Part shown: piece by piece, positions 44,880-62,331 of the stretch
Numbering within the stretch: the first letter of the stretch is position 1
Layout of the letters: each line of letters starts with the position of its first letter
Virus record (IMG/VR): IMGVR_UViG_3300045988_180412
Coordinates: 1 to 64,000 of that record
DNA length: 64,000 nt
Reading direction: 5' to 3' (one strand)
Origin: a virus
The notes under the pieces: model-generated
The model's database searches: none
Told to the model about the DNA's origin: nothing
What the model saw: only the letters and a program-made list of their open reading frames with translations
Program-made: the position numbers and the translations under genes

Positions 44880-44928
44880 TTATTACTCTAAAACCCCTTT
44901 CTCCAATAAACAAACTACTCAACCAACT

Positions 44929-45123: not shown

Positions 45124-45204
45124 AACTCGTCAAGATTAAAACCAATCAAGATATTCCAATCAAAATAAACCCGTCAGCCACGCAAACAACCAACACGGCT
45201 CTGA

Positions 45205-45212
45205 CAAAATTA
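45205..45212 (-). promoter_or_regulatory. candidate leftward -7 box (TAATTTTG on the minus strand)
   Basis: CAAAATTA on the plus strand. A second candidate, TAAATTTG, lies at 45516-45523. Confidence 0.3.
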
Positions 45213-45734
45213 ATAATCAAAAACCAATCACCAAATATCCAAACATCCAAATTTTCTAAATTTAATCCTTTATTTATATTTATAATACTATAATACTATA
45301 ATATATACTATACTAACTATGTATATAGTTAGGATAGTTTCTCGCCTTTTCCTTAAAAATTTTTTTTAAGGCGAGAACTTTTCCCCGAAAAATAATACAC
45401 TCATACATATTCACTAAATAATATATTACTAACCAAATAGTTATATGTGTGTAGATTGGTGTGTATGTCTCCCCAATTTACCCCCTTTCGTGTACATAAA
45501 ATCACCTTTTTACCCCAAATTTACCCGATTTTTTATCCCAAAAATACCCCCTTTTCACCAAAAATCAACCACCATCCCCAAAACACCAAAATAACCTCCC
45601 ACAACAACACCCTCAACAACCCCAAATAATCCCATATTATCACAATCCCCATAGAACTTCTCTAACTACATTATCTGTCTTATCTAAATTTGGTTTACTC
45701 AAAAGTCAACCTGTTTTAGGACGACACAATCACC

Positions 45735-45829
45735 CATACACAACTAAACCATACACAACTAAACCATACACAACTAAACTAAACTAAACCAAACTAAACT
45801 AAACCAAACTAAACTAAACCAAACTAAAC
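45735..45829. repeat. two abutting 15-bp tandem arrays (CATACACAACTAAAC x3, then TAAACTAAACCAAAC x3.3)
   Basis: Read directly. Confidence 0.9.
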
Positions 45830-45837
45830 ACTCATCT

Positions 45838-45872
45838 CACAATCCACAATCCACAATCCACAATCCACAATC
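45838..45872. repeat. 7-bp tandem repeat CACAATC x5
   Basis: Read directly. Confidence 0.9.
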
Positions 45873-46261
45873 CCTTTATAATCCCTGTCTCTAACTTCTG
45901 ACCGCTCTTAAATCATACTCTTTTCTGCTCTTTTCTATTCTTTTGCTCTATTCTACTTTCTCCACTCTACCTCTCTTTTACCCTATTTTCAAAGCACTTT
46001 AATCGCGCATAACTTGCTGATGAGCAATCATAACTTTCTGATAATCAGTTGTAACGCATTGACAATCAATTGGTTATACCCAAATTTTAATAAAAAAATT
46101 TAGAATGGACGCACCTCCAAACCCCAAAAAAATCGGCTTTTTGACCCCCCGCACCCCTATATTTTTTTTGTAATTCATGATAATCAATGTGTTTGGGCTA
46201 ATGTATCGTTCGCCACTCCACTCCGAACCGTATTTGTAACTGTCTGAAAATCAGGCAGTTA

Positions 46262-46598
46262 CGTGTTTTTGCGTGTTTTTTACGCATTAATCATTTCCCG
46301 GCCGTCCCCACATCCTCCAAATTTACATAATCGTGGATTATAAGCCGGTTTGCGATTATCGTTTGCGTTTATTTTGAAATATGCTTATTAAAATCAAGCG
46401 TGATTATCTGTTTAGATCCGGAACGTTTTACGATTTAGCATGATTTGCATTTGCTAAAATCAAGTTTGCGCCGTTGTTGTTTTTGCGTGAAAGATACGCA
46501 AAGTTATTGAGAGTTGTTTAGTGGATTAATTATGTGTAAAATTTACGCAAAGCGTTGATATTGCCGGGTTGTGTATTTTTGTGTGTGTTATACGCAAA
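46262..46598. promoter_or_regulatory. operator-like array of TTTGCGT / ACGCAAA heptamers, including two N7-spaced inverted repeats
   Basis: TGCGT-N7-ACGCA at 46270-46286. Perfect TTTGCGT-N7-ACGCAAA at 46482-46502. Single copies at 46362, 46545 and 46592. Confidence 0.5.
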
Positions 46599-46695
46599 AT
46601 TTGGCTGTCTATGTCTGTTTTTGTCTATTAGTTAAATAATGTGAAATTGCCCGAAAATAATTGCTTAAATGCTTGACTTAATGAAAAATAGTCCG

Positions 46696-46703
46696 TACCT
46701 TTG
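46696..46703 (+). promoter_or_regulatory. -7 box TACCTTTG for the rightward early operon
   Basis: TAnnTTTG match 59 nt upstream of ATG 46762. Same octamer as upstream of terL. Confidence 0.5.
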
Positions 46704-46761
46704 CATGTAGAAAAGGGGACGAAATAAGCCCTATATATAACACTTAAAAAATCAAATCAAA

Positions 46762-47070
46762 ATGCGAAAAATCGAATCTGAAATGTATGCAGCCTTTAAT
46801 GCCGGCTACAACTGGGCAAAAAGCAATACACGCGTTGAGGTCTCAACCTCCGACGACGAGAAGCGCGTGCGCTGCTTTCTTTTCGGCAATATCATAGCCG
46901 AAAAAATCATAAACAAAAGCGTGTACATTAAGCGGTTTTTTACAAGTGGGTACAATACCGCAACCACTTGCAACCGCTTGAACGCCCTCGGTGCGAATGT
47001 CAGCCGCAAAGGCGGATATATCCACTATGCCGACGGCACCCCCGTGCAAGCGCATTATACCGCACAATAA
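46762..47070 (+). CDS. hypothetical protein
   Basis: 102-aa ORF, first gene after the promoter. Confidence 0.6.
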   Translation: MRKIESEMYAAFNAGYNWAKSNTRVEVSTSDDEKRVRCFLFGNIIAEKIINKSVYIKRFFTSGYNTATTCNRLNALGANVSRKGGYIHYADGTPVQAHYTAQ

Positions 47071-47184
47071 AACAAAAAAAACGCCCCGGCGCTAACTTCA
47101 CAGCCGGCGCCGGGGCTAACTTAAAAAATCAAATCACTGCAAAGGTACGATATTTCGGCCTTTGCGCAAAATCAAAAAATCACA

Positions 47185-47424
47185 ATGAAAGTCACACTAA
47201 ACAAAAAGACCTCCGGGGGGTATTTCCCCGAAACGGTCAACGTTGAGTCGATTACTTGGGGGTTTGCCTCAAAAACCGCAACGCTACATATTGCCCCCGA
47301 GGAGTTTACGGAAAAATTTCAAGCGGTTGCCTTTGCCCAAATGTATGGTACCCGTATTTCCTTTGCGGCAACAATAGATATAGAAGTAAATAGCGAATAT
47401 ATATCCGACATATATTTCAGCTAA
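47185..47424 (+). CDS. hypothetical protein
   Basis: 79-aa ORF. Confidence 0.55.
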   Translation: MKVTLNKKTSGGYFPETVNVESITWGFASKTATLHIAPEEFTEKFQAVAFAQMYGTRISFAATIDIEVNSEYISDIYFS

Positions 47425-47434
47425 TCCGAATAAT

Positions 47435-47478
47435 CACCCGGCCGGTGCTTTTGGCGTGTTCGACTCGCGCCCGGGGTG
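47435..47478 (+). ncRNA. tRNA-like minihelix (acceptor-like stem plus T-arm)
   Basis: CACCCGG...GGCGTG-TTCGACT-CGCGCC-CGGGGTG. The T-arm is nearly identical to the one at 61074-61090. Confidence 0.4.
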
Positions 47479-47584
47479 CAAAGAAACAGTCGGCCCGGCG
47501 ACTATAAACAGGCATTAGGCCGTGCGCGTGGGCGGAAAATCCGCCCGGTTGTACTAAATAAATAAATCCTAAATAAATACAGCT

Positions 47585-48169
47585 ATGCAGAAAAATATTA
47601 TTTGGTCGTCAGACTACTATTTTGACGACTCCGCCCGCAAAGAGTTTGAGGACTACATCCAAACAGAATGCGGCTACATGCCGGACGACTCCGACTGGCA
47701 AAACGAAGTAAATGCACACATCGAAGATGAAAGGCTAAACCTTTCGGCGGACATCCCCGGCAACGGCTGCATTATAGCCGTTATTGACGCTGGCCGCTGG
47801 AATGGTCGCTATATATCCGCCACTCTATGCGGATATTCCCCCGCGCATATCTTTGACCTCGCGGAGGACGACAACGAGTACTATTGCGACGGCCTGAACG
47901 TGTGCGCACGTCTTGCGCACCACGACGGCACGCATTACGTTACATACCGCGTCGCGCCGGATATTGAGACTGCAAGGCGTATTGTTGACGGCCTACAAAG
48001 TGGCCGCATATCCGCCCGTACAGCAATGCGACAAACAAAGAGCCTCGCGCCACACGTTGCCAAAATATACGGCTGGCATGTAGATGGGCGGTTGACGCCA
48101 AAACGCGCCGCAAAACGCGTGGCACGCCACTACAACAAGCACATACACGCACAAAGACAATACGCGTAA
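47585..48169 (+). CDS. hypothetical protein
   Basis: 194-aa ORF. Confidence 0.6.
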   Translation: MQKNIIWSSDYYFDDSARKEFEDYIQTECGYMPDDSDWQNEVNAHIEDERLNLSADIPGNGCIIAVIDAGRWNGRYISATLCGYSPAHIFDLAEDDNEYYCDGLNVCARLAHHDGTHYVTYRVAPDIETARRIVDGLQSGRISARTAMRQTKSLAPHVAKIYGWHVDGRLTPKRAAKRVARHYNKHIHAQRQYA

Positions 48170-51968: not shown

Positions 51969-53138
51969 CTACCGCTTACCGTAAAGCACCCAATCAAGCA
52001 CTCGCCGATTAGCTTCGTCCACTTTGGCGTTGTCATAGTCGATATAAACATCCGTAATCGCAACACCGAAGGAGTGGCCTAATGCTTGGCTTATAATATC
52101 TTTTGGTATGCCAATACTGTATGCTATGGTCGCCCATGAGTGCCGCGCCCAATACAGCGTTAAATCATCACGCCCGGCACACTTTCTAAGTGCTGTGGAG
52201 ACGGCATTGCACATAGCATGTCGGGTACTCCACATGTCCGCAAACGTAAGCAACCGGCCATGCTGGTCTGACTTGTAGCGGTTTATTATTTCCAACGCTT
52301 CCGGCTCAACCTTGATACTGTACTGCTTGCGCGTCTTACAGCGCTCATACTCGATTCGACCATCAGTCGTTAAGCATTCAAGCCGAAGCATGTCTACACT
52401 ATTAATGCCGATAAGCATAAACGACAACTTAAAGACATCAAGTGCGACACGTGCGCGAGTACTACTTGGCGTAAGCGCAAATATAGTACGTATGACATCA
52501 ACTGGCAGCGAGCGTTTACGCGTTTTCGGTCTCCGTACAATTCGGGGCAATTGGATAAACGGATCGCGGTCTATAATCTCATTGCGTATAGCCTCGCGAA
52601 TAACCGCGTGGATACAGAACATATAATTGGAGATTGTGCCCAAGCTATAATCTTGACTGTATAACCAATTCAGATAGCGGCGCAATAGGTTATAATCAAT
52701 CTCTTGTATTAGCATATACTCTACATTCGCCTCATAACGCATTAGCGCATTCAAAGCGACCCTGTAACACTCTTGTGTCGCTTTGCGGCGGCGGCTTTTC
52801 ATGAAGTCGCGATATAGCGTAACAAACCGACATTCTTTTTCTATCTGTCGCCCGAACAGCTTATTGGCAACACGCTCTTTAATTTCGGCGACATCCATAA
52901 ATCGACCGCCTTGTTGATATATCTCCATTTTAAGCGCGTCTAACTGCTTAATCCAATAAGCTAAGACATTCGCAAGACGTTCGAGACGCTTAGGCGGATT
53001 AGGCGACAGCGCGAGGTCTAAGTCAAGCGGAGGCAAGTACATATCTGTTGCGAGTTCGGCCTTTCGGCGGTTGTTGGTGATGCGGATACGGACGTTGTTA
53101 CATCTCCGTTCATCGCATACAAGCTTCATTGTTATCAT
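51969..53138 (-). CDS. int: tyrosine recombinase / phage integrase
   Basis: 389 aa. SAM-like N-terminal domain. C-terminal YWARHSWAT...LGHS...DVYIDYD (R-H-R-Y type catalytic pattern). Confidence 0.9.
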   Translation of the reverse strand: MITMKLVCDERRCNNVRIRITNNRRKAELATDMYLPPLDLDLALSPNPPKRLERLANVLAYWIKQLDALKMEIYQQGGRFMDVAEIKERVANKLFGRQIEKECRFVTLYRDFMKSRRRKATQECYRVALNALMRYEANVEYMLIQEIDYNLLRRYLNWLYSQDYSLGTISNYMFCIHAVIREAIRNEIIDRDPFIQLPRIVRRPKTRKRSLPVDVIRTIFALTPSSTRARVALDVFKLSFMLIGINSVDMLRLECLTTDGRIEYERCKTRKQYSIKVEPEALEIINRYKSDQHGRLLTFADMWSTRHAMCNAVSTALRKCAGRDDLTLYWARHSWATIAYSIGIPKDIISQALGHSFGVAITDVYIDYDNAKVDEANRRVLDWVLYGKR

Positions 53139-54947: not shown

Positions 54948-55502
54948 TTATTTCGCTTCGTCTTTTTTCGCGGCCTTTGCTTCCGCTCGCCTGCGCCTCA
55001 TCGCCTCTTTAAGTTCATCTTTCTTTTGCCTTTCTTCTTCGGCGCGAGGCTTGTAGCGACCGGCAATACCGGCAAACCCCTCGATGATTGCTAAAAGGCG
55101 AGAAATCTGTTCGTCTTTCTCTTTTATCTCGACTGATAACGCCTCGACCTTACGGATAAGTGTTCGCATTAGGTTTTGGTCGCTTTTGCTTTTAGCGGTA
55201 TAAGACGCCGAGCCGCTTCCGTTGTTAACAGCCGAATGGGCAACGCCACCACGGATGTTAATTTCGTTGCTATCGGTGATTGCAGGATGTTCGGGCAGAA
55301 GCATATCGCCCTCGCCCGTTTTCAGCCACTCGATATTGAGAATCGGGAAGCGCTGACGGATTTTTTCAAACATCAGCGGACGACTTGTTGCTTTTATTTT
55401 AGTCCCTACGCCACGGGGCATACCGCACTCCTTTTCGAGCTGATTTATAGGCATATCCAGCGTTGCGGCAAAGTGTTTAAGCCTATCTACGGGTGTGTCC
55501 AT
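54948..55502 (-). CDS. CI-like repressor (N-terminal HTH, coiled-coil C-terminus)
   Basis: 184 aa. ...LKHFAATLDMPINQLEKECGMPRGVGTKIK... phage CI-repressor-type HTH. Divergent from the rightward operon. Confidence 0.7.
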   Translation of the reverse strand: MDTPVDRLKHFAATLDMPINQLEKECGMPRGVGTKIKATSRPLMFEKIRQRFPILNIEWLKTGEGDMLLPEHPAITDSNEINIRGGVAHSAVNNGSGSASYTAKSKSDQNLMRTLIRKVEALSVEIKEKDEQISRLLAIIEGFAGIAGRYKPRAEEERQKKDELKEAMRRRRAEAKAAKKDEAK

Positions 55503-55558
55503 TGTGTTAATGATTGTTAAATATTTGCGCTTTTCTTGCTTTTAATGAATTTTCGCCG

Positions 55559-55566
55559 TAACTTTG
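55559..55566 (+). promoter_or_regulatory. rightward -7 box TAACTTTG
   Basis: TAnnTTTG match. Confidence 0.4.
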
Positions 55567-55639
55567 CCCTCGAAATCGAAACTAACAGGCAAAACGAGGG
55601 CGGACAGCGTATAAAACGCCACCTCAATATGTTCAAAGG

Positions 55640-55647
55640 CAAATTTA
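55640..55647 (-). promoter_or_regulatory. leftward -7 box TAAATTTG (repressor promoter candidate)
   Basis: CAAATTTA on the plus strand. Faces the rightward box (convergent arrangement). Confidence 0.4.
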
Positions 55648-55699
55648 CGCCGTTCAAACGAGTTCGCCAAATTATTAACAATCATTAACCGCAAAAAAA

Positions 55700-55897
55700 A
55701 TGAAGCTAACGCAAGACATAGTGCGCAACTTGATGCCGGGGCAAACGCTTTCCGTCCACTGCGAAAGCGTGGATGAGCTGAACGCCGCGCAACAAACTGC
55801 GTACCGTGGACGGCGCGAACATCAAAAAAGCACGAAAGTGCGCGTTCAGCGTGATTCCAAAACGCTGACGCTAACACTGACGTGCAGCGCGGTTTGA
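55700..55897 (+). CDS. hypothetical protein in the Cro position
   Basis: 65-aa ORF, first gene of the rightward operon. Confidence 0.5.
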   Translation: MKLTQDIVRNLMPGQTLSVHCESVDELNAAQQTAYRGRREHQKSTKVRVQRDSKTLTLTLTCSAV

Positions 55898-55911
55898 TAA
55901 GTTATTAAGTT

Positions 55912-56112
55912 ATGACGATTTATCAACCTGACATCCGCGACAATGCGCTTATGACGGTCTTACAGGCCGCTAAGGTCTTAGGCGTAAGCCAACAGACCGT
56001 GCGCAGAGCATTAAAGCGCGGACGACAGGACGGCGGAATGGACGCAGCTCAACGCTGCCGCCGACTAAAAGTGTCCGGGGCTGAGGTCAAGCGCTTCTGG
56101 CGCGAACACTAA
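55912..56112 (+). CDS. HTH DNA-binding protein (excisionase/MerR-like)
   Basis: 66 aa. MTVLQAAKVLGVSQQTVRRALKRG. Confidence 0.6.
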   Translation: MTIYQPDIRDNALMTVLQAAKVLGVSQQTVRRALKRGRQDGGMDAAQRCRRLKVSGAEVKRFWREH

Positions 56113-56690
56113 GTCCGAGGAGAGGCAACGGCCTTACGGTTGCCACGCGGGACTCGCGAATAGCGAGATACAGAGACTGCGATAGTGCCTGCTGATGAGC
56201 ATACAGTACGGGTAGCACCCGAAAGCTCCGCCGAGGTCGGCGCTCCTTGAAGCCAAATGACGGCTTACAAGTGAACCGGCAAACCAAGCCGCTGCAATAC
56301 CGAGCGGCACGACATAGGGAGAGGCGAAAGATACCGGAACAGAGCAATAGGCGTTGACATGTCCGCCGACAGCATCCGGGGCAAATGTGCGGAGAGTAGC
56401 GTCTCCGCGATGACATACGGCGGCATAAACAGACGTCAATGGCGAGGTACAGCCTTTGCCGCCGAGGTATTGACAAAGATTAGAAACTTTGGTTTCTATA
56501 TATATAGCCGCAGCTCGCGAAGGCGTTAAGACCCCATCAGAACCTGCTGCGGCACTAAGGCCGACCAACCCTGACCACCCTCGAAAGTATGCGCGATAGG
56601 ATAGCCGCGCATCAGGACATCGCAGACAGCTTTGGCTGTGCTATTCGGAATTTGAGGACGCTGTGCGCGGTTCGACTCCGCGCCGAGGGA
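56113..56690 (+). ncRNA. candidate large structured ncRNA ending in a tRNA-like module
   Basis: ~580 nt between same-strand genes. GC-rich. Only antisense, Arg/Cys-rich ORFs. Many local helices. The 3' module is at 56578-56690. Confidence 0.35.
56578..56690 (+). ncRNA. tRNA-like module 1
   Basis: Acceptor CCCTCG/CGAGGG. D-like hairpin ATGCGCG-ATAGGATAGC-CGCGCAT. T-arm CGCGG-TTCGACT-CCGCG preceded by GGAC. No 7-nt anticodon loop. Confidence 0.45.
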
Positions 56691-56718
56691 CACAACATCA
56701 ACTAACACAAACAAGACA

Positions 56719-57060
56719 ATGAGGAAATACAAATTAACAGACGAAACAATTCAAATCACGCGTAACGGTGTGGAAGTAACGCTACACCAAATTGAGGCGC
56801 TGCGAGACTTCGGGGTCGTGAAAGCAGGCGAGAAAGGCGGCTTTATAGAGCGCGAGGCTAACCTAAGCCACGATGGTGACTGCTGGGTCTACGACACCGC
56901 AAAAATTTATGATAATGCCAAGGTGTACGGCAACGCATGGATATTCGGCTGCGCCGAGGTGTACGACACTGCCGAGGTGTACGACAACGCCAATATCTAC
57001 GGCTGCGCCAAGGTGTACGGCACGTCTAAGGTATACGGTGACATCGTGCTGTCTAAGTAA
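56719..57060 (+). CDS. hexapeptide-like repeat (beta-helix) protein
   Basis: 113 aa. Repeats VYDTAKIYDNAKVYGNAWIFGCAEVYDTAEVYDNANIYGCAKVYGTSKVYG. Confidence 0.65.
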   Translation: MRKYKLTDETIQITRNGVEVTLHQIEALRDFGVVKAGEKGGFIEREANLSHDGDCWVYDTAKIYDNAKVYGNAWIFGCAEVYDTAEVYDNANIYGCAKVYGTSKVYGDIVLSK

Positions 57061-57093
57061 TAAAGTAATAAATAGCCCTATTAATAATCAACT

Positions 57094-57318
57094 ATGAAAT
57101 TCGTAAATAAAACGATGATTGCAGCCGCAACGATACTGACATCCGTATGCGGCTTTTTCATGGCTTTTGCCTACGGCTGGACAAACCAAAATTATTGGTT
57201 TGTTCTCGGCGGTCTTGTTCTAATGGTTGCGCCGTGGCTTATAGCCGTGTTTATCGGCAAATTAGGGAAATTGAAAGAAATAATATTCCCCGACCCACAA
57301 GATGAGGATATATACTAA
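57094..57318 (+). CDS. small membrane protein
   Basis: 74 aa with two TM helices. Confidence 0.55.
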   Translation: MKFVNKTMIAAATILTSVCGFFMAFAYGWTNQNYWFVLGGLVLMVAPWLIAVFIGKLGKLKEIIFPDPQDEDIY

Positions 57319-57455
57319 ACATATGTCTAAACAGTGTTATTTTTAGCTATTTTTATTCCATGGCGGAGAGACCGAGAGAGGTCGTAAAATCCGCCAACAG
57401 GATTGGTTGCGAATAGCTTAGCCGATGCCGTCCGTGAGAATAGCATCGGCTTAAT

Positions 57456-57543
57456 GGGCATGGCAGACCGCAAGCATCGTTGCGAGTATTACTCGTGCGT
57501 CAAACAGCGGTGCTTGTCTGCGGTTCAACTCCACAGATGCCCA
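57456..57543 (+). ncRNA. tRNA-like module 2 (88 nt)
   Basis: Acceptor GGGCAT/ATGCCC. Hairpins CGCAA-GCATCG-TTGCG and CGAGT-ATT-ACTCG. T-arm TGCGG-TTCAACT-CCACA with one mismatch. Confidence 0.4.
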
Positions 57544-57625
57544 CGCGAACACTCATATGCAGTAAGTTGATTAGACATCAGACATTAGACGCTTGGTGGT
57601 CTGCGAAGATAGCCAAGCATTATAC

Positions 57626-57735
57626 GGAATAACAAAGCACGGATAACGGATGCCCGTGCAAGGCTTGACGGCGACTTGACAGTGCGCGACCGAGGCCTTT
57701 TTAAGCTATCCCGAGTTCGATTCTCGGGTATTCCT
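57626..57735 (+). ncRNA. tRNA-like module 3
   Basis: Acceptor GGAATA/TATTCC. D-like hairpin GCACGG-ATAACGGATGC-CCGTGC. Perfect T-arm CCGAG-TTCGATT-CTCGG. Confidence 0.45.
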
Positions 57736-57772
57736 CAAAGTGTTCATATAGGGTTTATGTATTTTCGGCATT

Positions 57773-57818
57773 ACGGACGGGCTATTGCATGGTTAGTCCG
57801 TCCGTGTGCCGATTTTTT
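57773..57818 (+). terminator. possible terminator after module 3
   Basis: ACGGACGG/CCGTCCGT stem. The T6 run starts 7 nt downstream. Confidence 0.4.
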
Positions 57819-57828
57819 ATTAGTATTC

Positions 57829-58182
57829 ATGGGAAAAAAAACTGTTACAGAAGCGGAGCTTGCGTATATCCGCCAAAACGCTTCGACCATGAGTTCGCGC
57901 GAAATGCGCATAGCGCTTGGCCTGCAACACTCGTGGCAACTTCGCTATCGCGCAAGGCTTGCAGGTGTAAAGTTGCAACCCTCGCTGCGCAAAAACGCGC
58001 ACCTGCAACGCAGGTTGTCTCAACAAGAGAAAAGCTGGCTTGCGGCAAATTATAGGCACGTAACCATGCACTTTATACATAGGTTCTTGGGGATAAGCTG
58101 GAAAGCGTTATACCGAGAACTCAACGCAATGGGATTCTCTAAATCCCGACCCCTGACAAAAAACCAACCAACTAAACAATAG
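57829..58182 (+). CDS. hypothetical basic protein with two HTH-like segments
   Basis: 117 aa from ATG 57829 inside ORF 57676-58182. Confidence 0.55.
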   Translation: MGKKTVTEAELAYIRQNASTMSSREMRIALGLQHSWQLRYRARLAGVKLQPSLRKNAHLQRRLSQQEKSWLAANYRHVTMHFIHRFLGISWKALYRELNAMGFSKSRPLTKNQPTKQ

Positions 58183-58188
58183 ACATCT

Positions 58189-58437
58189 ATGACAATTGAA
58201 ACTAAATTCAGCCTCGGCCAAAAAGTTTATTGGCTTGAAGGCCACGAGGCGCTCAGCGCACGTGTAACGCGCGTAAGCGTAAATGAACAAGGCAGCATCT
58301 ACTATGGAGTCCTTGTCGGTGATGCAGATCTGCGGTTTATGGCCGAGAGTGAGCTTAAAGGCTCGCTTGATGCTATCTATCAAGAACTTAGCGAAACATT
58401 GAGCGCTGTCAAAGAACAAATGGCCAACGGCTTATGA
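58189..58437 (+). CDS. hypothetical protein
   Basis: 82-aa ORF with an ATGA overlap to the exonuclease gene. Confidence 0.55.
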   Translation: MTIETKFSLGQKVYWLEGHEALSARVTRVSVNEQGSIYYGVLVGDADLRFMAESELKGSLDAIYQELSETLSAVKEQMANGL

Positions 58438-59387
58438 TGATAGAGTCGACCATCTACGGTCTGCCAAACGGCGAATATCACCGTGGTGAGCCGTATAATA
58501 AGTACATCAGCAGCAGCCAAATCAAGGACTATGCAAAGTCCCCGGCCTACGCTAAATGGCATCGGGAGCATCCCGATGACGAAAGCGGCAACGCGGCGTT
58601 GGCCTTTGGCTCGCTGTTCCACGATTGCCTTGCGAGTCTTGCGGGCGGTCAAAGTTTGACCGCGTGGATAAGCGGCACGGCTGTGTTCGACGCCCCCGTA
58701 AACGACAAAACGAGGCAACCTTACGGCGCAACGACCAAGCGCTATGCGGAGGCTTACGAGGAGTTCTTGCTCGCCAACGTTGACAACCGCATTGCTTCGA
58801 GCGCAGATCTGCAACTTATCCGCGACATGGTGTCGGCATTATTGGATGACCGAACCGAAACAGGCAAGACCGTCCGTAAGTTGCTTAAATGGGGCAAGCC
58901 CGAAGTAAGCCATTTCCTCGTATTCGAGGGTTGCAAATTCAAGTGCCGCCCCGACCTCGAAACACGCAAAAAAATTGTGGATTGGAAAACCACAACCCTT
59001 GACGCTTTCGACGAGGACAGCGTAAATAGAGTAATCCTGAAATACGGCTACCATATCAGCGCCGCAATGTATCAGTGGCTTGTCCACGAAATTACGGGCG
59101 AATGGAAGTCGTTTTACCTCGTGCTTGTATCTAAGCAAGCACCCCATGACAGCGTAATCGTCTGCATGGACGATTGGGCTTATCGACACATCTCCGAAGC
59201 CGACTATACGGCATTAGGCCCCGGCGCTTACGAGTTCGCTAAGCTCCGCGATTTACATATGCAATGCGTAAAGAGCGGCGAATATCCGACCGCCGAGGTG
59301 TTTATAGATAAAAGAGACGGTGAGGCGCCTATAATGAACATTCAACCCCCGTCTTACGTTACACGAAAGTACATCGACGAAATATGA
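58434..59387 (+). CDS. PD-(D/E)XK family exonuclease (recombination exonuclease partner of RecT)
   Basis: 317 aa. ...KFKCRPDLETRKKIVDWKTT... D...D-x-K motif. Immediately upstream of recT and overlapping it. Confidence 0.65.
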   Translation: MMIESTIYGLPNGEYHRGEPYNKYISSSQIKDYAKSPAYAKWHREHPDDESGNAALAFGSLFHDCLASLAGGQSLTAWISGTAVFDAPVNDKTRQPYGATTKRYAEAYEEFLLANVDNRIASSADLQLIRDMVSALLDDRTETGKTVRKLLKWGKPEVSHFLVFEGCKFKCRPDLETRKKIVDWKTTTLDAFDEDSVNRVILKYGYHISAAMYQWLVHEITGEWKSFYLVLVSKQAPHDSVIVCMDDWAYRHISEADYTALGPGAYEFAKLRDLHMQCVKSGEYPTAEVFIDKRDGEAPIMNIQPPSYVTRKYIDEI

Positions 59388-60304
59388 AAGAGGAAGAAAC
59401 AATACAGCAACAATCCGCCGAAACGCCGCAGGAGCAGCCGCAAACGCAAGCCGTTGCGGTCAAGAAAGACGCCTCCCCCGAGCGCACGGCGGAAGCTATT
59501 AAGCGTCTGCCTGCCGAGTTGCAGGGCATACGCAATCTGTTTGCACAGCCGTGGGAGAGTTTCCGCGCGGCTTTTGCTGACCCGCAAGAGGCCGACCGCA
59601 CGATGCAGCGCGAAATCACCTACGCAGCGCAAGCGATGACGTCTAATAGTTATCTTATAGAGTGTGCGGCTAAATTTCCGCAGGACTTCGTAAACGCGCT
59701 GAAAAATGTCGCGTTGAGCGGCTTATCATTGTCTCCGACACTCAAACAAGGCTATCTTGTGCCCTTCAAAGGCCGCGTAACCTTTATGCCCTCCTATATG
59801 GGCATGGTTGACCTGCTTAGCAACAACGGCCATATCAAGAAGATAGAGGCATTTTTGGTTTTTGAGGGCGATGAGTTTACCATGACGCACGGCACAAACG
59901 AAAGTCTTGTACATAAACCCAATCCGTGGGGGGAACGCTCCGAAAAGACGCTACTCGGCGGCTATTGGATAGCGACCCTTGCAGATGACACAAAGCTGTT
60001 CGACAATATGACCAAGGCGGAAATCGACCAAATAAAGATGCGGTCGCCGTCCGTTGCCGGAAAGAAGTCCTCGCCGTGGGATAGCGACTATCTGGCAATG
60101 TGTCGCAAGACGATATTGCGGCGCGGATTCAAATCCCTGCCCAAGGGCACTATCAGCGATGACCGCATTAAGGTTATCGAGGCCGTATTCGATTATGACG
60201 AAAAAGCCGAGCAAGACTGGGTTGCACGTCAGAAACAAGCCAATAAACGCACAAACGCTGACTTCGATGAGGACGGCGAAGTGCAATACGAGGAAATAAA
60301 CTAA
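59384..60304 (+). CDS. recT: RecT-family single-strand annealing protein
   Basis: 306 aa. ...SGLSLSPTLKQGYLVPFKGRVTFMPSYMGMVDL... RecT core pattern. Confidence 0.8.
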   Translation: MKEEETIQQQSAETPQEQPQTQAVAVKKDASPERTAEAIKRLPAELQGIRNLFAQPWESFRAAFADPQEADRTMQREITYAAQAMTSNSYLIECAAKFPQDFVNALKNVALSGLSLSPTLKQGYLVPFKGRVTFMPSYMGMVDLLSNNGHIKKIEAFLVFEGDEFTMTHGTNESLVHKPNPWGERSEKTLLGGYWIATLADDTKLFDNMTKAEIDQIKMRSPSVAGKKSSPWDSDYLAMCRKTILRRGFKSLPKGTISDDRIKVIEAVFDYDEKAEQDWVARQKQANKRTNADFDEDGEVQYEEIN

Positions 60305-60512
60305 GGTCGTAATCCCTGCACAAGAGAGTGCGAAACAGGCGCGTCCTGTTCGGGCGCAAATCATTAATGTTATGGAGGGCGTGTGGTCTAAGATAAGACG
60401 GCATACGAATATTAACCTTAGATTAGGTTAGTGCCAAATAAGCCGTGTGCAAATTCGGAATTAAGTCCCGACACGCCTGCAAATTTACCATTGTTTGTTT
60501 AACTATATTATT

Positions 60513-60686
60513 ATGAAAGAGTTGATTAGCAAAATCTCTGAGTTGTTCGAGGTGTTTTCCTCAAACGCCGTCAAGGCGCAAGCAGGAAACAAAGCTGCCG
60601 GCGCACGCGCACGCAAAGCTTCCCTCGAAATCGAAAAAGCCTTGAAAGAGTTCCGTAAAACTTCCGTTGCCTACGGCAAGGAGTAA
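60513..60686 (+). CDS. histone H1-like (Hc1 family) DNA-binding protein
   Basis: 57 aa. MKELISKISELFEVF...GNKAAGARARKASLEIEKALKEFRK, typical of Bacteroidota Hc1-like proteins. Confidence 0.7.
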   Translation: MKELISKISELFEVFSSNAVKAQAGNKAAGARARKASLEIEKALKEFRKTSVAYGKE

Positions 60687-60702
60687 GTAACGCGGAACGC
60701 CT

Positions 60703-60766
60703 GCGGTGCGGAGTTCGTTTGGGATGCCGCTAATTAGCGGACAGGTTCGACCCCTGCCGCACCGCC
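60703..60766 (+). ncRNA. tRNA-like module 4 (short: 9-bp acceptor-like stem plus T-arm plus one hairpin)
   Basis: GCGGTGCGG/CCGCACCGC. Hairpin CCGCT-AATT-AGCGG. T-arm CAGG-TTCGACC-CCTG. Confidence 0.4.
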
Positions 60767-60847
60767 AACATAGGCAAGTCGATTACTATTACCATATTGA
60801 ATTATGTTCGTTTTTCTGCGCCGTCTGTGAAGATAGCGCGGTTTTAT

Positions 60848-60916
60848 GGGCGTCATGGTGAAACCCTTGTTTTTAGGCTTTTCAAGGGTATTGCGGTTCG
60901 AGTCCGCTTGCGCCCG
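60848..60916 (+). ncRNA. tRNA-like module 5
   Basis: Acceptor GGGCGT/TGCGCCC. Hairpin CCCTTG-(13 nt)-CAAGGG. T-arm GCGG-TTCGAGT-CCGC. Confidence 0.35.
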
Positions 60917-60996
60917 CACATAGGTTATATGTATGATGAGAAGAGTAAAGTGGATTTTGGAGTGTCGGGCTTGTGAAAGTCCGGCGCTCGTTTTTC

Positions 60997-61098
60997 GGGA
61001 CAACAAGCCGTGGATGCACGGAAGCCCACGGACGCCATCCTTCTGTCAGTGGCGTTGCAGGACACTGCCGCAAGCGCGTTCGACTCGCGCTTGTCCCA
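60997..61098 (+). ncRNA. tRNA-like module 6 (102 nt; perfect 7-bp acceptor and 5-bp T-arm)
   Basis: GGGACAA/TTGTCCC. GCGCG-TTCGACT-CGCGC. Hairpins CCGTG-GATG-CACGG, GACGCCAT-(10 nt)-GTGGCGTT, GCAG-GACA-CTGC. Too long and lacks a 7-nt anticodon loop. Confidence 0.5.
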
Positions 61099-61157
61099 CA
61101 TAAAGTTAATATTTCTTAAAAAATACGCCATTATTTGTTTGGCAAGATGCAAACCAT

Positions 61158-61165
61158 TAAATTTG
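61158..61165 (+). promoter_or_regulatory. -7 box TAAATTTG, with TTTG about 20 bp upstream
   Basis: Part of the 19-mer TTAAATTTGCGGCATCCAA, repeated at 62842. Confidence 0.55.
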
Positions 61166-61171
61166 CGGCAT

Positions 61172-61341
61172 CCAAACGGCAATTGACGCAAGTCTTTTGT
61201 CGCCAATAAAATTTCTACTATTGTAGATAAAAAGGCGGAAGTGTCGCGCCCTTCGGGGTTGCGTGAATTGAAACGCGATAAGCAAAGTAGGATTAAATTT
61301 TCCTTTCGCCGAGGGCAGGATATTATTCCTGCCCTTTTTTT
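61172..61341 (+). ncRNA. candidate sRNA (~170 nt) with its own promoter and strong terminator
   Basis: Bounded by the -7 box and by GGGCAGGA-TATTAT-TCCTGCCC plus T7. Contains a C(UUCG)G-type hairpin. No convincing ORF. Confidence 0.5.
61313..61341 (+). terminator. rho-independent terminator
   Basis: 8-bp GC-rich stem followed by TTTTTTT. Confidence 0.85.
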
Positions 61342-61485
61342 ATTCTCTAAGCGACTGACGCATTTGCGTTGGCCGCTTTTTTTAGCCAATTACCGACGAG
61401 GGGGATGTAGCGAAAACGCGACACCCTCCACAAAGAGTGGTATACAAGCAATGATTTCCAACCACCCACATAAACATAAAACAAA

Positions 61486-62331
61486 ATGATAAACAATATC
61501 GACAATTTATTTATGCCGGAAATAAACGAAACAAAGGCGGTGCAGCCACTTAAAGAAGTGGAAGTGGTAGGGCAGTCGTTCATTATCTACGGAACACCCG
61601 AAGAACCTTTGTTCAAGGCGAAAGACGTTGCAACTTTTATTGGGCACTCTGATGTGTCTATGATGATGCAGACGGTGGATGATGACGAAAAGCTGACCCA
61701 AACAATGTTTGTATCAGGTCAAAATCGAAACGTATGGATGCTGACAGAAAATGGTTTGTACGAAGTTCTTATGCAGAGCCGCAAACCAACAGCCAAACTG
61801 TTTAAGAAAGGCGTCAAGAAGATTCTACGCGAAATCCGAATGACCGGTGGCTATATCGCCGCTAAGGACGATGATTCGCCCGAGGTGATAATGGCAAAGG
61901 CGCTACAAATAGCCCAAGCCACCCTTGCACGACAAGAGTCAAGACTGCAACAACTCGAAAACACCAACACGCGTAACGAACAAACCATCTTAGAGCAAGC
62001 GCCAAAGGTGGACTACTACGACACCACGCTGCAAAGTGTTAATACTATGACCACAACCCAAATTGCAAAGGAATTGGGAATGGACGCGCACAGCCTTAAC
62101 AAGCAACTTAAACAAGCCGGCGTAATCTTCCGTCAATCGGGGATGTGGATGATGAAACAACCTTATGCAAGCTGGAATTTATCCGCGACACGCACACAGA
62201 CCTATACGCGGTCTGACGGAAGTATCGGGTCGTCAATGTATACCGTTTGGAACGAACGCGGACGGCGCTTCATCCACGCGTTGCACGACAATGGGTTTAA
62301 CGCCCGTAAAGCAAAGAATGCTATTGTATAA
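61486..62331 (+). CDS. antirepressor-type protein (Bro-N domain plus KilAC/ANT C-terminal domain)
   Basis: 281 aa. ...FIIYGTPEEPLFKAKDVATFIGHSDVS... Bro-N pattern. C-terminal ...YYDTTLQSVNTMTTTQIAKELGM...LNKQL... KilAC pattern. Confidence 0.8.
   Translation: MINNIDNLFMPEINETKAVQPLKEVEVVGQSFIIYGTPEEPLFKAKDVATFIGHSDVSMMMQTVDDDEKLTQTMFVSGQNRNVWMLTENGLYEVLMQSRKPTAKLFKKGVKKILREIRMTGGYIAAKDDDSPEVIMAKALQIAQATLARQESRLQQLENTNTRNEQTILEQAPKVDYYDTTLQSVNTMTTTQIAKELGMDAHSLNKQLKQAGVIFRQSGMWMMKQPYASWNLSATRTQTYTRSDGSIGSSMYTVWNERGRRFIHALHDNGFNARKAKNAIV

What the first reader, a model, noticed from the sequence alone, without database searches (positions are those of the whole stretch)
57319..57828. Second ORF-free block with two tRNA-like modules and a trailing hairpin
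This 510-nt intergenic block holds module 2 (57456-57543) and module 3 (57626-57735). Module 3 has a perfect CCGAG-TTCGATT-CTCGG T-arm. Upstream are strong hairpins, GGCGGA/TCCGCC and the 9-bp AGCCGATGC/GCATCGGCT. Neither module can be folded into a cloverleaf with a 5-bp stem and 7-nt anticodon loop, so they look like tRNA mimics rather than decoding tRNAs.
Basis: seen in the sequence. Interest (0 to 1): 0.65.

Follow-up and report, generated by a model that had tools for sequence, protein, structure and literature searches.

The report
Non-decoding tRNA-shaped RNAs in a phage
This gap between genes in a gut-type temperate phage encodes two conserved RNAs that keep the acceptor/T-arm body of a tRNA but have no anticodon loop; they belong to a set of about seven such RNAs in the phage's early operon, whose job is unknown.

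Summary
57319-57828 is ORF-free and holds, on the + strand, two hairpins, module 2 (57456-57543), a third hairpin, module 3 (57626-57735) and a strong terminator 12 nt before the next ATG. ARAGORN at default settings and Rfam (down to E=10) call nothing here, so these are not ordinary tRNA genes. They are also not junk. The block is syntenic in five related phage clades. Module 3's four main helices are 97% paired, with 7 doubly compensated pairs (0/500 shuffles). G-U wobbles place the RNA on the + strand. Each module keeps a 12-bp acceptor/T-arm stack and a UUCRANY T-loop, but the anticodon arm is replaced. A model built from module 3 finds two paralogues in the window, at E=1e-9 and 7e-4. 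In all, about seven modules punctuate the early operon, next to a ~440-nt conserved RNA of unknown type. More distant Bacteroidales prophages carry tRNAs with disabled anticodon loops at the same place. My best reading (0.45, inferred) is that these are non-decoding tRNA mimics, cut out of the early transcript by host RNase P and 3' processing. This is an undescribed variant of a known kind, with no experimental data.

The parts
57361..57396 (+). Hairpin A (GGCGGA/TCCGCC with an inner GACC/GGTC stem). A hairpin sits here in every clade, but its sequence is not conserved.
   Evidence: Fold; alignment A1.
57420..57451 (+). Hairpin B: a 9-bp basal stem, a bulged A and an apical helix capped by the GNRA tetraloop GUGA (57434-57437), followed by a U-rich 4-7 nt spacer before module 2.
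   Evidence: CGTGAG is invariant, and the stem covaries between clades.
57456..57543 (+). Module 2. It has a 6-bp acceptor (GGGCAU/AUGCCC), an invariant 8-nt linker GGCAGACC in place of a D arm, a long covarying arm with an inner hairpin and a 12-nt 3' internal loop, a 6-bp T stem with loop UUCAACU, and discriminator A.
   Evidence: The T stem has 3 pairs changed on both sides and the long arm 2. The acceptor is invariant.
57591..57618 (+). Hairpin C: basal stem GCUUGG/CCAAGC, then the apical motif GGUCU-GCGA-AGAUAG with a GNRA loop at 57603-57606. The same apex recurs before module 5 (CGUCUGUGAAGAUAG, about 60820-60834).
   Evidence: The basal stem covaries (GCUUGG/CCAAGC against GCUUGAC/GUCAAGC).
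57626..57735 (+). Module 3. It has a 6-7-bp acceptor, a 5-nt linker (A)CAAA, a 6-bp D-like stem with an 11-nt loop AUAACGGAUGC, and a weak 3-5-bp stem enclosing a nearly invariant 27-28-nt insert that contains hairpin GCGACU-UGAC-AGU(G)CGC. A 10-nt variable region, a 6-bp T stem with loop UUCGAUU and discriminator U follow.
   Evidence: 97.2% of cells paired; 7 pairs with double changes; 0/500 shuffles. CM R1 scores it at 113.9 bits.
57743..57758 (+). Conserved trailer motif UUCAUAUAGGGUUUAU. Similar (A)CAUA(U)AGG strings follow modules 4, 5 and 6.
   Evidence: Its role is unknown.
57765..57818 (+). Intrinsic-terminator-like hairpin (19 pairs, -32.9 kcal/mol, z = -7.2) plus a T6 run. It ends 10 nt before the ATG at 57829.
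   Evidence: conserved, with covariation, in all clades. The scan missed it only because its loop is 9 nt.
56578..56690 (+). Module 1, a paralogue of module 3. The acceptor, 7-bp D-like stem, loop AUAGGAUAGC and T arm are conserved, while the central arm is free to vary. It lies directly 3' of the ~440-nt conserved RNA.
   Evidence: CM R1 gives 22.5 bits, E=7e-4.
60997..61098 (+). Module 6, a paralogue of module 3. It has the D-like loop AUGCACGGAAGC, an expanded 10-12-nt 'anticodon' loop and a long variable-arm hairpin.
   Evidence: CM R1 gives 42.4 bits, E=1e-9.
60848..60916 (+). Module 5, of the same class as module 2: the linker GGUGAAACC replaces the D arm, and the arm is a 6-bp stem with a 13-nt loop. 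It is preceded by the hairpin C-type apex.
60704..60764 (+). Module 4: a 61-nt mini tRNA-like element with an 8-9-bp acceptor, a 4-5-bp T stem and a 6-nt loop hairpin. Its fold is ambiguous.
   Evidence: RNAalifold prefers a different fold.
60377..60478 (+). Module 0x, between recT and the Hc1 gene: a tRNA-like element with a degenerate T-loop (low confidence in W). Orthologues in L001 and L118 have proper T-loops.
55559..55566 (+). TAACTTTG, one of only two strict Bacteroides-type -7 boxes on the + strand in 55400-61600 (the other is at 61158). It is the likely early rightward promoter that reads through the blocks.
   Evidence: pattern match only. The consensus comes from my own knowledge of Bacteroides promoters.

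Best explanation
The block encodes two members of a phage family of non-decoding, tRNA-shaped RNAs.

Shown: they are + strand RNA structures under purifying selection. They keep the part of a tRNA that processing enzymes read, namely a 12-bp acceptor/T-arm coaxial stack, a UUCRANY T-loop with a closing G-C pair, a GG-containing D-like loop or linker, and a discriminator base without an encoded CCA. The anticodon arm is replaced by other conserved structures. About seven such modules lie inside the early rightward operon of a temperate Bacteroidales-type phage.

Inferred: the modules are transcribed as part of the polycistronic early RNA from the promoter near 55559, because the block has no strict promoter of its own. 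Host RNase P cuts at the 5' end of each module, and 3' trimming plus CCA addition finish it, as for the phage's own tRNA-Met. This has two consequences. (i) The early transcript is cut at defined points. Each upstream piece then ends in a GNRA-capped hairpin plus a U-rich tail that would protect it, and the block-2 transcript ends at, or must read through, the terminator at 57765-57818. (ii) Stable L-shaped small RNAs are released. Their non-tRNA arms carry the real function: the nearly invariant core ACGGCNACUUGACAGUNNGCGAC in module 3, and GGCAGACC plus a long arm in module 2. What they bind is unknown.
For: These are not tRNAs: ARAGORN and Rfam find nothing.

The RNA structure is conserved. 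The block is syntenic in five clades found through the neighbouring proteins. Module 3 is 97.2% paired, against 31-55% when partners are slid, with 7 doubly compensated pairs and 0/500 shuffles reaching that. Module 2's T stem and long arm covary.

Strand: in the four solid helices there are about 7 G-U cells and 1 A-C cell, and modules 1 and 4-6 show the same bias.

Paralogy: a CM built only from module 3 orthologues finds module 6 (42 bits, E=1e-9) and module 1 (22.5 bits, E=7e-4) at full length, but not the true tRNA-Met.

Chance is excluded: six strict modules against 0.25 expected.

Processing logic: the phage's real tRNA-Met (32352-32424, - strand) also lacks an encoded CCA and is followed by A-C-A, like modules 1, 2 and 6. 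Leaders are short and U-rich. Module 1's tRNA frame is conserved while its central arm is free, as expected of a processing handle.

There is no strict promoter inside the block, and a strong terminator sits 10 nt before the next gene.

Related prophages carry tRNAs with disabled anticodon loops at the same position: a 6-nt loop UNCCAA, a GAAA tetraloop, or a 17-nt loop. LoVEphage-type Bacteroides phages carry a 203-nt element annotated 'tRNA-Undet' whose acceptor covaries.

RNase P is documented to process tRNA-like non-tRNA substrates, including phage RNAs (PMC11143913). tRNA-like t-elements define mRNA ends in plant mitochondria (PMC1920247).
Against: No expression, cleavage or end-mapping data exist, so every processing step is inference.

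The tRNA likeness is partial. The D-like stems are 6-7 bp with a 5-nt linker, and module 2 has no D arm. Chimeras given a canonical anticodon arm are still rejected by default ARAGORN. In the L001 clade, module 2's T-loop is UGCAACU (G at position 55) and its T stem carries a mismatch.

Pure punctuation does not explain why module 3's insert and the hairpin apices are nearly invariant in sequence.

The promoter argument rests on a consensus match only.

Diversity is low: 9-10 distinct sequences from about 4-5 clades, so the covariation statistics are modest, and helix 3 of module 3 is weak (86% paired, no double change).
Confidence: 0.45

Rival explanations
1. The modules are tRNA decoys or sponges. 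They mimic the tRNA body to bind and titrate a host factor that recognises tRNA by shape, such as a tRNA-cleaving or tRNA-modifying anti-phage nuclease or toxin. This would protect host and phage tRNAs early in infection or on induction. It is compatible with RNase P maturation and differs only in what the mature RNA does.
For: The L-shaped frame is what is conserved across paralogues and across distant prophages, while the anticodon loop is repeatedly disabled in different ways. The modules sit in the early operon, where counter-defence genes usually lie. A related Bacteroides phage (LoVEphage) carries nine annotated tRNAs (PMC8525569) and an RtcB RNA ligase, which suggests pressure from tRNA-targeting defences in this host group. 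tRNA-cleaving defences and phage countermeasures are documented (abstract of PMC13096335).
Against: Most known anti-phage tRNases cut anticodon or variable loops (my own knowledge), and these are exactly what the modules lack or alter. No partner protein was found in Pfam scans of about 40 window proteins. No RNA decoy of this kind turned up in my four literature searches on tRNA-like phage RNAs. Seven distinct, individually conserved modules are more than a simple sponge needs.
Confidence: 0.2
2. The block is a cis-acting transcription-control region of the early operon. The GNRA-capped hairpins (boxB-like), possibly together with the tRNA-like folds, would make RNA polymerase resistant to the terminator at 57765-57818, in the manner of nut/N or put RNA. 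The tRNA shape would then be secondary.
For: A very strong terminator sits 10 nt before the exo/recT gene group with no room for a promoter, so downstream genes need read-through. The block lies just downstream of the cro-like HTH genes, where lambda nutR and tR1 lie (my own knowledge). The conserved hairpin apex with a GNRA loop recurs before further terminators in block 3.
Against: No N-like protein was identified, and no boxA-like element was tested. Known put and nut elements are not tRNA-like. This reading does not explain the conserved T-loop, D-like loop and 12-bp stack, or the presence of single tRNA-like genes at the same place in relatives that lack these hairpins.
Confidence: 0.13
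3. They are real decoding tRNAs with unusual structure or short introns, spliced or used as they are.
For: ARAGORN at -ps80 calls module 2 tRNA-Asn(att) and, with introns allowed at -ps70, forces calls on modules 1 and 3. A similar LoVEphage element is annotated as a two-piece tRNA-His, and that phage has RtcB.
Against: The putative anticodon loop of module 2 differs in every clade and lacks U33 in most. Module 3 has no U33 or 7-nt loop candidate in any register, and its insert is conserved as a structure of its own. Rfam tRNA gives no hit at E<=10. No splicing endonuclease or RtcB appears among the window proteins scanned. Inserts of 28-50 nt are too short for group I introns (my own knowledge).
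Confidence: 0.03
4. They are YrlA-type bacterial Y RNAs that tether a Ro60/Rsr protein.
For: YrlA RNAs are ~100-nt tRNA mimics found in bacteria and phages, with T- and D-like arms, and they are RNase P and CCA-enzyme substrates (PMC4201824).
Against: The topology is opposite. In YrlA the ends form the Ro-binding stem and the 'acceptor' is a closed stem-loop (PMC4201824), whereas here the ends form the acceptor. No GNCGAAN0-1G motif is in block 2. No TROVE/Rsr domain appears among the roughly 40 proteins scanned, whereas YrlA lies within 4 kb of rsr.
Confidence: 0.03
5. They are decaying tRNA pseudogenes, chance hairpins, or DNA-level elements (origin, att or packaging site) with no RNA function.
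For: tRNA gene fragments are common near integration sites, and this phage is temperate (the integrase is at 51969-53138).
Against: Compensatory changes and strand-specific G-U pairs argue against this. So do synteny and conservation at the level of recT/exo (M3 81-89% nt identity), 0.25 chance hits expected against six found, and the >4 kb separating the block from the integrase on the other side of the repressor genes.
Confidence: 0.03

Closest known systems
Canonical tRNA genes and phage tRNA islands
   Same: A 12-bp acceptor/T-arm stack, a UUCRANY T-loop with a G-C closing pair, a GG-containing D-type loop, a discriminator base, no encoded CCA (as in this phage's own tRNA-Met), a clustered arrangement and a terminator at the end of the cluster.
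   Different: There is no 5-bp/7-nt anticodon stem-loop and no conserved anticodon. The D stem is 6-7 bp or absent, and lengths are 61-112 nt. ARAGORN and Rfam RF00005 do not recognise them.
tRNA-like processing signals: MALAT1/mascRNA in mammals and t-elements in plant mitochondria (PMC1920247)
   Same: These are non-decoding tRNA-shaped folds embedded in longer transcripts. Their cleavage by RNase P and RNase Z creates the ends of the neighbouring RNAs. Module 1, directly 3' of a ~440-nt conserved RNA, parallels mascRNA behind MALAT1.
   Different: Those examples are eukaryotic or organellar. Here the context is a phage operon, the units are multiple and distinct, and some of the non-tRNA arms are themselves strongly conserved. 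Cleavage is untested.
Virus-encoded non-decoding tRNA-like RNAs: murine gammaherpesvirus 68 vtRNAs/TMERs and phage T4 'species 1 and 2' stable RNAs (my own knowledge); P1/P7 C4 antisense RNA precursor and phage M3 RNA as RNase P substrates (PMC11143913)
   Same: They are viral small RNAs that borrow tRNA shape to use host tRNA-processing enzymes. In TMERs, tRNA-like units are physically linked to hairpins. C4 regulates an antirepressor gene, and block 3 here lies just upstream of an ANT/Bro-N gene.
   Different: There is no sequence or model similarity. The hairpins precede rather than follow the tRNA-like unit. No antisense target was found: the 11-mer complementarity search found only isolated short matches, which I judged unconvincing.
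YrlA / bacterial Y RNAs (PMC4201824)
   Same: They are ~100-nt bacterial and phage tRNA mimics with T- and D-like arms.
   Different: They have a permuted topology, depend on a neighbouring rsr gene and carry a 5' GNCGAA motif. None of these features is present here.
LoVEphage / Bacteroides phage BI-TP1 element annotated 'tRNA-His, note tRNA-Undet, 2 pieces' (MW660583.1 29237-29439)
   Same: The design and setting are the same. It has a 7-bp acceptor that covaries between isolates, a D-loop AAAUCGGAAGA and a canonical T arm, with a large insert where the anticodon loop should be. It lies in the early region of a temperate Bacteroidales phage with the same exo/recT gene order.
   Different: The insert is ~100 nt. 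CM R1 does not detect it, so homology is not shown. It is a single copy as far as I looked, and that phage also has RtcB and ordinary tRNAs.
ROOL and GOLLD large phage RNAs (PMC12286853), for the neighbouring ~440-nt RNA
   Same: They are large, highly structured RNAs of unknown function in phages and prophages, near tRNA islands, sometimes covalently linked to tRNAs.
   Different: There is no Rfam match to either at E<=10. The RNA here is ~440 nt and is known only from this phage lineage.

Membership tests
tRNA (Rfam RF00005 / ARAGORN definition) | Acceptor stem of 7 bp stacked on a 5-bp T stem, with a 7-nt T-loop UUCRANN | tested here: met
   Modules 2 and 3 have 6+6 (or 7+5) = 12 bp and loops UUCAACU / UUCGAUU. 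One clade has UGCAACU in module 2.
tRNA (Rfam RF00005 / ARAGORN definition) | Anticodon arm with a 5-bp stem and a 7-nt loop carrying U33 and a conserved anticodon | tested here: not met
   No such arm exists in either module. The loop forced at -ps80 is not conserved.
tRNA (Rfam RF00005 / ARAGORN definition) | D arm with a 3-4-bp stem after a 2-nt linker | tested here: not met
   Module 3 has a 6-bp stem after a 5-nt linker. Module 2 has only the 8-nt GGCAGACC. Chimeras with a canonical anticodon arm are still rejected.
tRNA (Rfam RF00005 / ARAGORN definition) | Recognised by standard finders | tested here: not met
   ARAGORN default and intron mode give 0 calls. Rfam gives no hit at E<=10. 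tRNAscan-SE was not available.
YrlA / Y RNA | 5' and 3' ends form the Ro-binding stem, and the tRNA-like 'acceptor' is a closed stem-loop (permuted order V-T-AS-D) | tested here: not met
   The order here is acceptor-D-arm-V-T-acceptor, with open ends at the acceptor. YrlA topology is taken from PMC4201824.
YrlA / Y RNA | GNCGAAN0-1G motif near the 5' end | tested here: not met
   A regex finds none in 57319-57828. A single GGCGAAAG at 56323 in block 1 is at chance level.
YrlA / Y RNA | Encoded within about 4 kb of an rsr (TROVE-domain) gene on the same strand | tested here: not met
   No TROVE domain in any neighbour or in about 40 window proteins scanned. Not every small ORF was scanned.
tmRNA | tRNA-like domain made from distant 5' and 3' ends, plus a tag reading frame and pseudoknots | tested here: not met
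   ARAGORN's tmRNA search finds none, including at the relaxed -ps80 threshold. The modules are self-contained at 87-110 nt.
tRNA-like processing element (mascRNA / t-element type) | Non-decoding tRNA-shaped fold embedded in a longer transcript | tested here: inconclusive
   The fold and the lack of decoding capacity are shown. Co-transcription is inferred only from the absence of a strict promoter and the presence of the terminator.
tRNA-like processing element (mascRNA / t-element type) | Cleaved by RNase P at the 5' end and by RNase Z or exonucleases at the 3' end, with CCA added | not testable with these tools
   This needs RNA end mapping or in vitro cleavage.
Intrinsic terminator | GC-rich hairpin immediately followed by a U run | tested here: met
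   57765-57812 folds at -32.9 kcal/mol with z = -7.2, followed by T6. It is conserved with covariation.
Lambda-type nut site (boxA + boxB) / HK022 put RNA | BoxB hairpin with a GNRA-like loop bound by an N protein, with boxA upstream; or two put stem-loops acting on RNA polymerase | not tested
   GNRA-capped hairpins are present, but I made no search for boxA or for an N-like protein. This is a resemblance from memory only.
ROOL / GOLLD (for the adjacent 440-nt RNA) | Match to the Rfam covariance models | tested here: not met
   No hit at E<=10 on 55900-57250 or 56100-56700.

The most novel reading that the evidence does not exclude
The seven tRNA-shaped modules, their GNRA-capped leader hairpins and the adjacent ~440-nt conserved RNA together form a new phage RNA system of Bacteroidales temperate phages. 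In it, non-decoding tRNA mimics act in trans, for example as decoys for tRNA-recognising host immunity or as partners of a ROOL/GOLLD-like large RNA, rather than merely as processing punctuation. The 'disabled-anticodon' tRNAs seen in many related prophages, including the highly prevalent LoVEphage, would be simpler members of the same system.
Probability: 0.15. Interest if true: 0.85.

Novelty: new variant of a known kind. Interest (0 to 1): 0.62.

Why it matters
Phage tRNA genes are usually explained by codon usage or by replacing tRNAs that host defences have cut. Here a phage lineage keeps about seven tRNA-shaped genes that cannot decode, each conserved individually, in the operon that runs first after infection or induction. 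Related gut Bacteroidales prophages keep a tRNA with a deliberately crippled anticodon loop at the same spot.

That points to a use of the tRNA shape itself, whether for RNA processing, for stability or for binding a host factor, and this use is not described for phages of this major gut phylum. It also flags a class of features that annotation pipelines either miss or label 'tRNA-Undet'. Cultured relatives exist (BI-TP1 on Bacteroides intestinalis, PV4-TP1 on Phocaeicola vulgatus), so the question can be tested directly.

Tried and rejected
- **Ordinary tRNAs.** Rejected by ARAGORN default and intron modes and by Rfam.
- **Intron-containing tRNAs.** No register gives U33 plus a 7-nt loop, and the insert is itself a conserved structure.
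- **Any Rfam family.** Nothing relevant at E<=10 in blocks 1, 2 or 3.
- **RNase P RNA.** By eye, the 440-nt RNA in block 1 shares short strings with it (GAGGCGAAAG, AACAGAGCAA, CAGAACC). No RNase P model hit came back even on a 600-nt search with lax filters, so I dropped this as pareidolia.
- **tmRNA.** No ARAGORN tmRNA call. A possible tag frame in block 1 is broken by a 1-nt indel in L010.
- **YrlA.** Wrong topology, and no rsr gene.
- **Partner protein.** Pfam scans of about 40 window proteins found no TROVE, RtcB, ligase, nucleotidyltransferase or nuclease partner.
- **Antisense targets.** An 11-mer reverse-complement search of all modules against the window gave only isolated short matches that I judged unconvincing. 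The one oddity is a 12-mer shared in the same sense with an ORF at about 27.2 kb.
- **Host identification.** Two genome-contig scans found nothing. The phages collection has no DNA match to the block.
- **Pattern scans for wider homologues.** Hits in viral contigs were almost all chance. The metagenome scan added only near relatives and one false hit in a coding gene.
- **Chimera test.** Swapping in a canonical anticodon arm did not make ARAGORN accept the modules. This limits how 'tRNA-like' the body can be called.
- **Promoter inside the block.** Only relaxed TAnnTTTn matches were found.
Full report
**1. What is there**

- Hairpin A is 57361-57396.
- Hairpin B is 57420-57451.
- Module 2 is 57456-57543.
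- Module 3 is 57626-57735, with the T-arm CCGAG-TTCGATT-CTCGG.
- A trailing hairpin at 57765-57812 is followed by six T.

The flanking genes end at 57318 (a 74-aa membrane-type protein) and start at 57829 (a 117-aa protein whose homologues align from residue 1). Against dinucleotide shuffles the pieces fold with z = -3.5 (module 2), -2.7 (module 3), -3.8 (hairpins A+B) and -7.2 (trailing hairpin).

**2. Not ordinary tRNA genes**

ARAGORN finds one tRNA in the whole window, tRNA-Met at 32352-32424 on the minus strand, and nothing in this block. Allowing introns changes nothing. Only at 80% of the normal threshold is module 2 forced into 'tRNA-Asn(att)'. Rfam 15 reports nothing relevant here even at E<=10, and no partial tRNA hit. 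The loop ARAGORN would read as an anticodon differs in every related phage.

**3. Real, conserved RNA structures on the + strand**

Using the neighbouring 117-aa protein and the PD-(D/E)XK exonuclease as anchors, I recovered the same block from five groups of related phage contigs: L001/L010-17, L003, L004-09/L108, L114 and L113. The order of elements is identical in all of them (alignments A1 and A2).

For module 3 (nine distinct sequences, A3):
- The five-helix structure I proposed is 97.2% paired, against 31-55% when the 3' partners are slid by 1-3 columns.
- Seven pairs change on both sides, a count that 0 of 500 shuffles reach.
- The acceptor, D-like, inner and T helices are each 96-100% paired. 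The fifth helix, the stem enclosing the insert, is weak (86%, no double change).

For module 2 (ten distinct sequences, A4), the T stem and the long arm covary, while the acceptor and the linker GGCAGACC are invariant.

One-sided changes are G-U, not A-C, which fixes the functional strand as + and argues for RNA rather than a DNA element. At the nucleotide level module 3 is as conserved as recT and the exonuclease gene (81-89%), and module 2 is less so (59-77%).

**4. Anatomy**

Both modules keep a 12-bp coaxial acceptor/T stack (6+6, or 7+5 with a weak seventh pair), a T-loop of the UUCRANY type closed by G-C, and a discriminator base with no encoded CCA.

Module 3 adds:
- a 6-bp D-like stem with an 11-nt loop AUAACGGAUGC;
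- in place of an anticodon loop, a nearly invariant 27-28-nt insert that forms a bulged hairpin (GCGACU-UGAC-AGU-G-CGC) flanked by GACG and GACCG.

Module 2 has no D arm. An invariant GGCAGACC links the acceptor to a long arm whose sequence drifts but whose pairing is kept.

Each module is preceded, at 4-7 U-rich nucleotides, by a long hairpin. Its apex is a short helix with a bulged A and a GNRA tetraloop (GUGA in hairpin B, GCGA or GUGA in hairpin C), and the apex sequence is conserved while the basal stem covaries. The block ends in a terminator-like hairpin that stops 10 nt before the next start codon.

The tRNA likeness has limits. When I replaced the central arms by a canonical anticodon arm, default ARAGORN still called none of the chimeras.

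**5. The two modules are part of a larger set**

A mechanical scan (T-loop, 5-bp T stem, 6-7-bp acceptor) finds six modules, all on the + strand between 56578 and 61097. The only other hit is the real tRNA-Met, and shuffled windows give 0.25 hits. The set is:
- module 1 at 56578-56689;
- modules 2 and 3;
- modules 4, 5 and 6 at 60704-60764, 60848-60915 and 60997-61097;
- a seventh, with a degenerate T-loop, at about 60377-60478.

All are conserved in the related clades.

A covariance model built only from module 3 orthologues finds module 6 (42.4 bits, E=1e-9) and module 1 (22.5 bits, E=7e-4) at full length, but does not find tRNA-Met. Modules 1, 3 and 6 are therefore paralogues of one family that is distinct from tRNA. 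Modules 2 and 5 share the 'GGYGANACC instead of a D arm' design.

**6. Genomic setting**

The host element is a temperate phage of about 57 kb. Its layout is:
- an integrase (Phage_int_SAM_5 type) and leftward repressor-side genes;
- then a rightward early operon: two small genes including an HTH protein, block 1, two small ORFs, block 2, the 117-aa protein, a PD-(D/E)XK exonuclease, RecT, an Hc1 histone-like protein, block 3, and an ANT/Bro-N antirepressor.

The nearest cultured relatives by the exonuclease (44% identity) are Bacteroides and Phocaeicola phages of the LoVEphage type. Other homologues sit in Muribaculaceae and mouse-gut assemblies. The host is therefore most likely in Bacteroidales, though two genome scans found no prophage copy.

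On the + strand of 55400-61600 only two strict Bacteroides-type -7 boxes (TAnnTTTG; consensus from my own knowledge) occur, at 55559 and 61158. Block 2 has only relaxed matches. This suggests, but does not prove, that blocks 1 and 2 are read from the early promoter.

**7. Wider distribution of the theme**

Prophages whose exonuclease is only about 50% identical carry, at the same place upstream of the exonuclease, single tRNA-like genes with a crippled anticodon loop:
- a 71-nt tRNA with a 6-nt loop UNCCAA in L104, L105 and L119 (ARAGORN 'tRNA-??? (cc)', Rfam tRNA 45 bits);
- a 69-nt tRNA-like gene with a GAAA tetraloop in L115/L116;
- a tRNA with a 17-nt loop in L118, homologous in position and leader to module 0x.

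In LoVEphage (MW660583.1 29237-29439) a 203-nt element is annotated 'tRNA-His, note tRNA-Undet, two pieces'. Its 7-bp acceptor differs from that of phage BI-TP1 by a compensatory change (GGAUAAG/CUUAUCC against GAAUAAG/CUUAUUC). Its D-loop, AAAUCGGAAGA, resembles those of modules 3 and 6, and about 100 nt sit where the anticodon loop should be. My model R1 does not detect it, so I claim likeness of design, not homology.

**8. How it most likely works**

What is conserved is the part of a tRNA that RNase P, 3' processing enzymes and the CCA-adding enzyme read. What is lost is the part the ribosome reads. The phage's own tRNA-Met lacks an encoded CCA and is followed by A-C-A, as are modules 1, 2 and 6, so host 3' maturation is already relied on.

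Module 1 keeps the tRNA frame while its central arm varies freely, and it sits directly behind a ~440-nt conserved RNA. That arrangement is the mascRNA/MALAT1 and plant mitochondrial t-element logic (PMC1920247). RNase P is known to cut phage non-tRNA RNAs of tRNA-like shape (PMC11143913).

I therefore favour, at 0.45, a model in which the modules are cut out of the early polycistronic RNA by host tRNA-processing enzymes. This would have two effects:
- It defines ends. The upstream fragments would finish in a GNRA-capped hairpin plus a U tail.
- It releases stable L-shaped RNAs.

Because module 3's insert and the hairpin apices are nearly invariant, punctuation alone is not enough. These parts probably bind something, and I could not identify what. 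Every step after 'conserved structure' is inference.

**9. Rivals**

- **Decoy or sponge for a tRNA-recognising host factor (0.2).** This fits the early-operon position and the repeated disabling of the anticodon loop, and LoVEphage's RtcB hints at tRNA-directed conflict. But most known tRNA-cutting defences, as I recall them, target the very loops that are missing.
- **Cis-acting antitermination (0.13).** The strong terminator placed 10 nt before essential early genes, and the boxB-like hairpins, suggest this. It does not explain the tRNA features.
- **Decoding or intron-bearing tRNAs, YrlA-type Y RNAs, and pseudogenes or DNA elements (about 0.03 each).** The reasons are given in the membership table and the rival entries.

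**10. Comparison with known kinds, and novelty**

The modules work like known tRNA mimics (mascRNA, t-elements, MHV68 vtRNAs, T4 stable RNAs, YrlA). They fail the defining tests for tRNA, YrlA and tmRNA, and they match no Rfam family. I found no description of them in six full-text searches that bear on tRNA-like phage RNAs. The only trace is an automatic 'tRNA-Undet' label in one GenBank record.

I rate them a new variant of a known kind. Interest is moderate to high. The finding is solid as comparative genomics, and it touches an open question: why phages carry tRNA-like genes that cannot decode. It also has a cultured test system. However, the lineage with the full seven-module set is narrow, the sequence diversity is low, and the function is unproven.

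**11. Limits**

- No expression data exist.
- tRNAscan-SE was unavailable.
- The alignments hold only 9-10 distinct sequences from closely related phages, so shuffle controls overstate significance.
- Helix 3 of module 3, the fold of module 4 and the status of module 0x in this window are uncertain.
- The promoter inference is a pattern match only.

Noticed in passing
window 56113-56562 (+): A ~440-nt ORF-free stretch just upstream of module 1 is 82-86% identical across three phage clades, as conserved as recT. RNAalifold gives a multi-helix consensus with 8 compensated pairs. There is no Rfam hit at E<=10, including RNase P, ROOL and GOLLD. It looks like a large structured RNA of unknown class, with a tRNA-like unit attached at its 3' end.
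   Followed up: partly
window 60687-61485 (+): A third ORF-free block holds modules 4-6, two more GNRA-capped hairpins (one with the same apex as hairpin C), a strict Bacteroides-type promoter box at 61158, and two terminators (61311-61336 and 61355-61372). It lies just upstream of an ANT/Bro-N antirepressor gene (61486-62331).
   Followed up: partly
window 60377-60478 (+): Another tRNA-like element lies between recT and the Hc1 histone-like gene. Its T-loop is degenerate in this window (AUUAAGU), but orthologues in L001 (5564-5670) and L118 (8590-8673) have proper T-loops; ARAGORN calls the L118 one tRNA-Gln with a 17-nt loop.
   Followed up: partly
L104 5211-5283; L105 4566-4638; L119 3757-3829; L115/L116 3633-3701: More distant Bacteroidales prophages carry, at the same place in the early operon, a tRNA with a 6-nt anticodon loop UNCCAA (ARAGORN 'tRNA-??? 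(cc)') or a tRNA-like gene whose anticodon loop is a GAAA tetraloop.
   Followed up: partly
L122 625-827 (LoVEphage MW660583.1 29237-29439); L121 about 11638-11750 (Bacteroides phage BI-TP1): A 203-nt element is annotated 'tRNA-His / tRNA-Undet, two pieces'. It has a covarying 7-bp acceptor, a near-canonical D arm and T arm, and about 100 nt inserted in the anticodon loop. LoVEphage also encodes an RtcB RNA ligase (39267-40532).
   Followed up: partly
window 47488-47553 (+): A pistol self-cleaving ribozyme (Rfam RF02679, 63.4 bits against a gathering score of 34.5) lies about 30 nt upstream of the ORF at 47585-48169.
   Followed up: no
window about 42000-47500: This region has low GC (0.33-0.34, against about 0.50 elsewhere) and very strong negative GC skew (to -0.52). 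It includes a 1.6-kb stretch (45124-46761) without any ORF of 60 aa or more.
   Followed up: no
window 27199-27210 and 27313-27324 (- strand): The 12-mer CTGCGAAGATAG, which forms the apex of hairpin C, occurs twice in the same sense inside the minus-strand ORF 26903-27460, where it encodes ...AKI... both times. This may be chance or a peptide repeat; I did not resolve it.
   Followed up: partly
window 32425-32470 (- strand, upstream of tRNA-Met): The one genuine tRNA of the phage is also preceded by a hairpin with a GAGA-containing loop, and is followed by A-C-A rather than CCA. This resembles the leader and trailer layout of the tRNA-like modules.
   Followed up: no
L011, L013, L017 about 3565-3570: In three otherwise near-identical contigs the inner hairpin of module 2 has GCGAG replaced by GCTCA, which breaks the small stem. 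This part of module 2 seems dispensable or variable.
   Followed up: no
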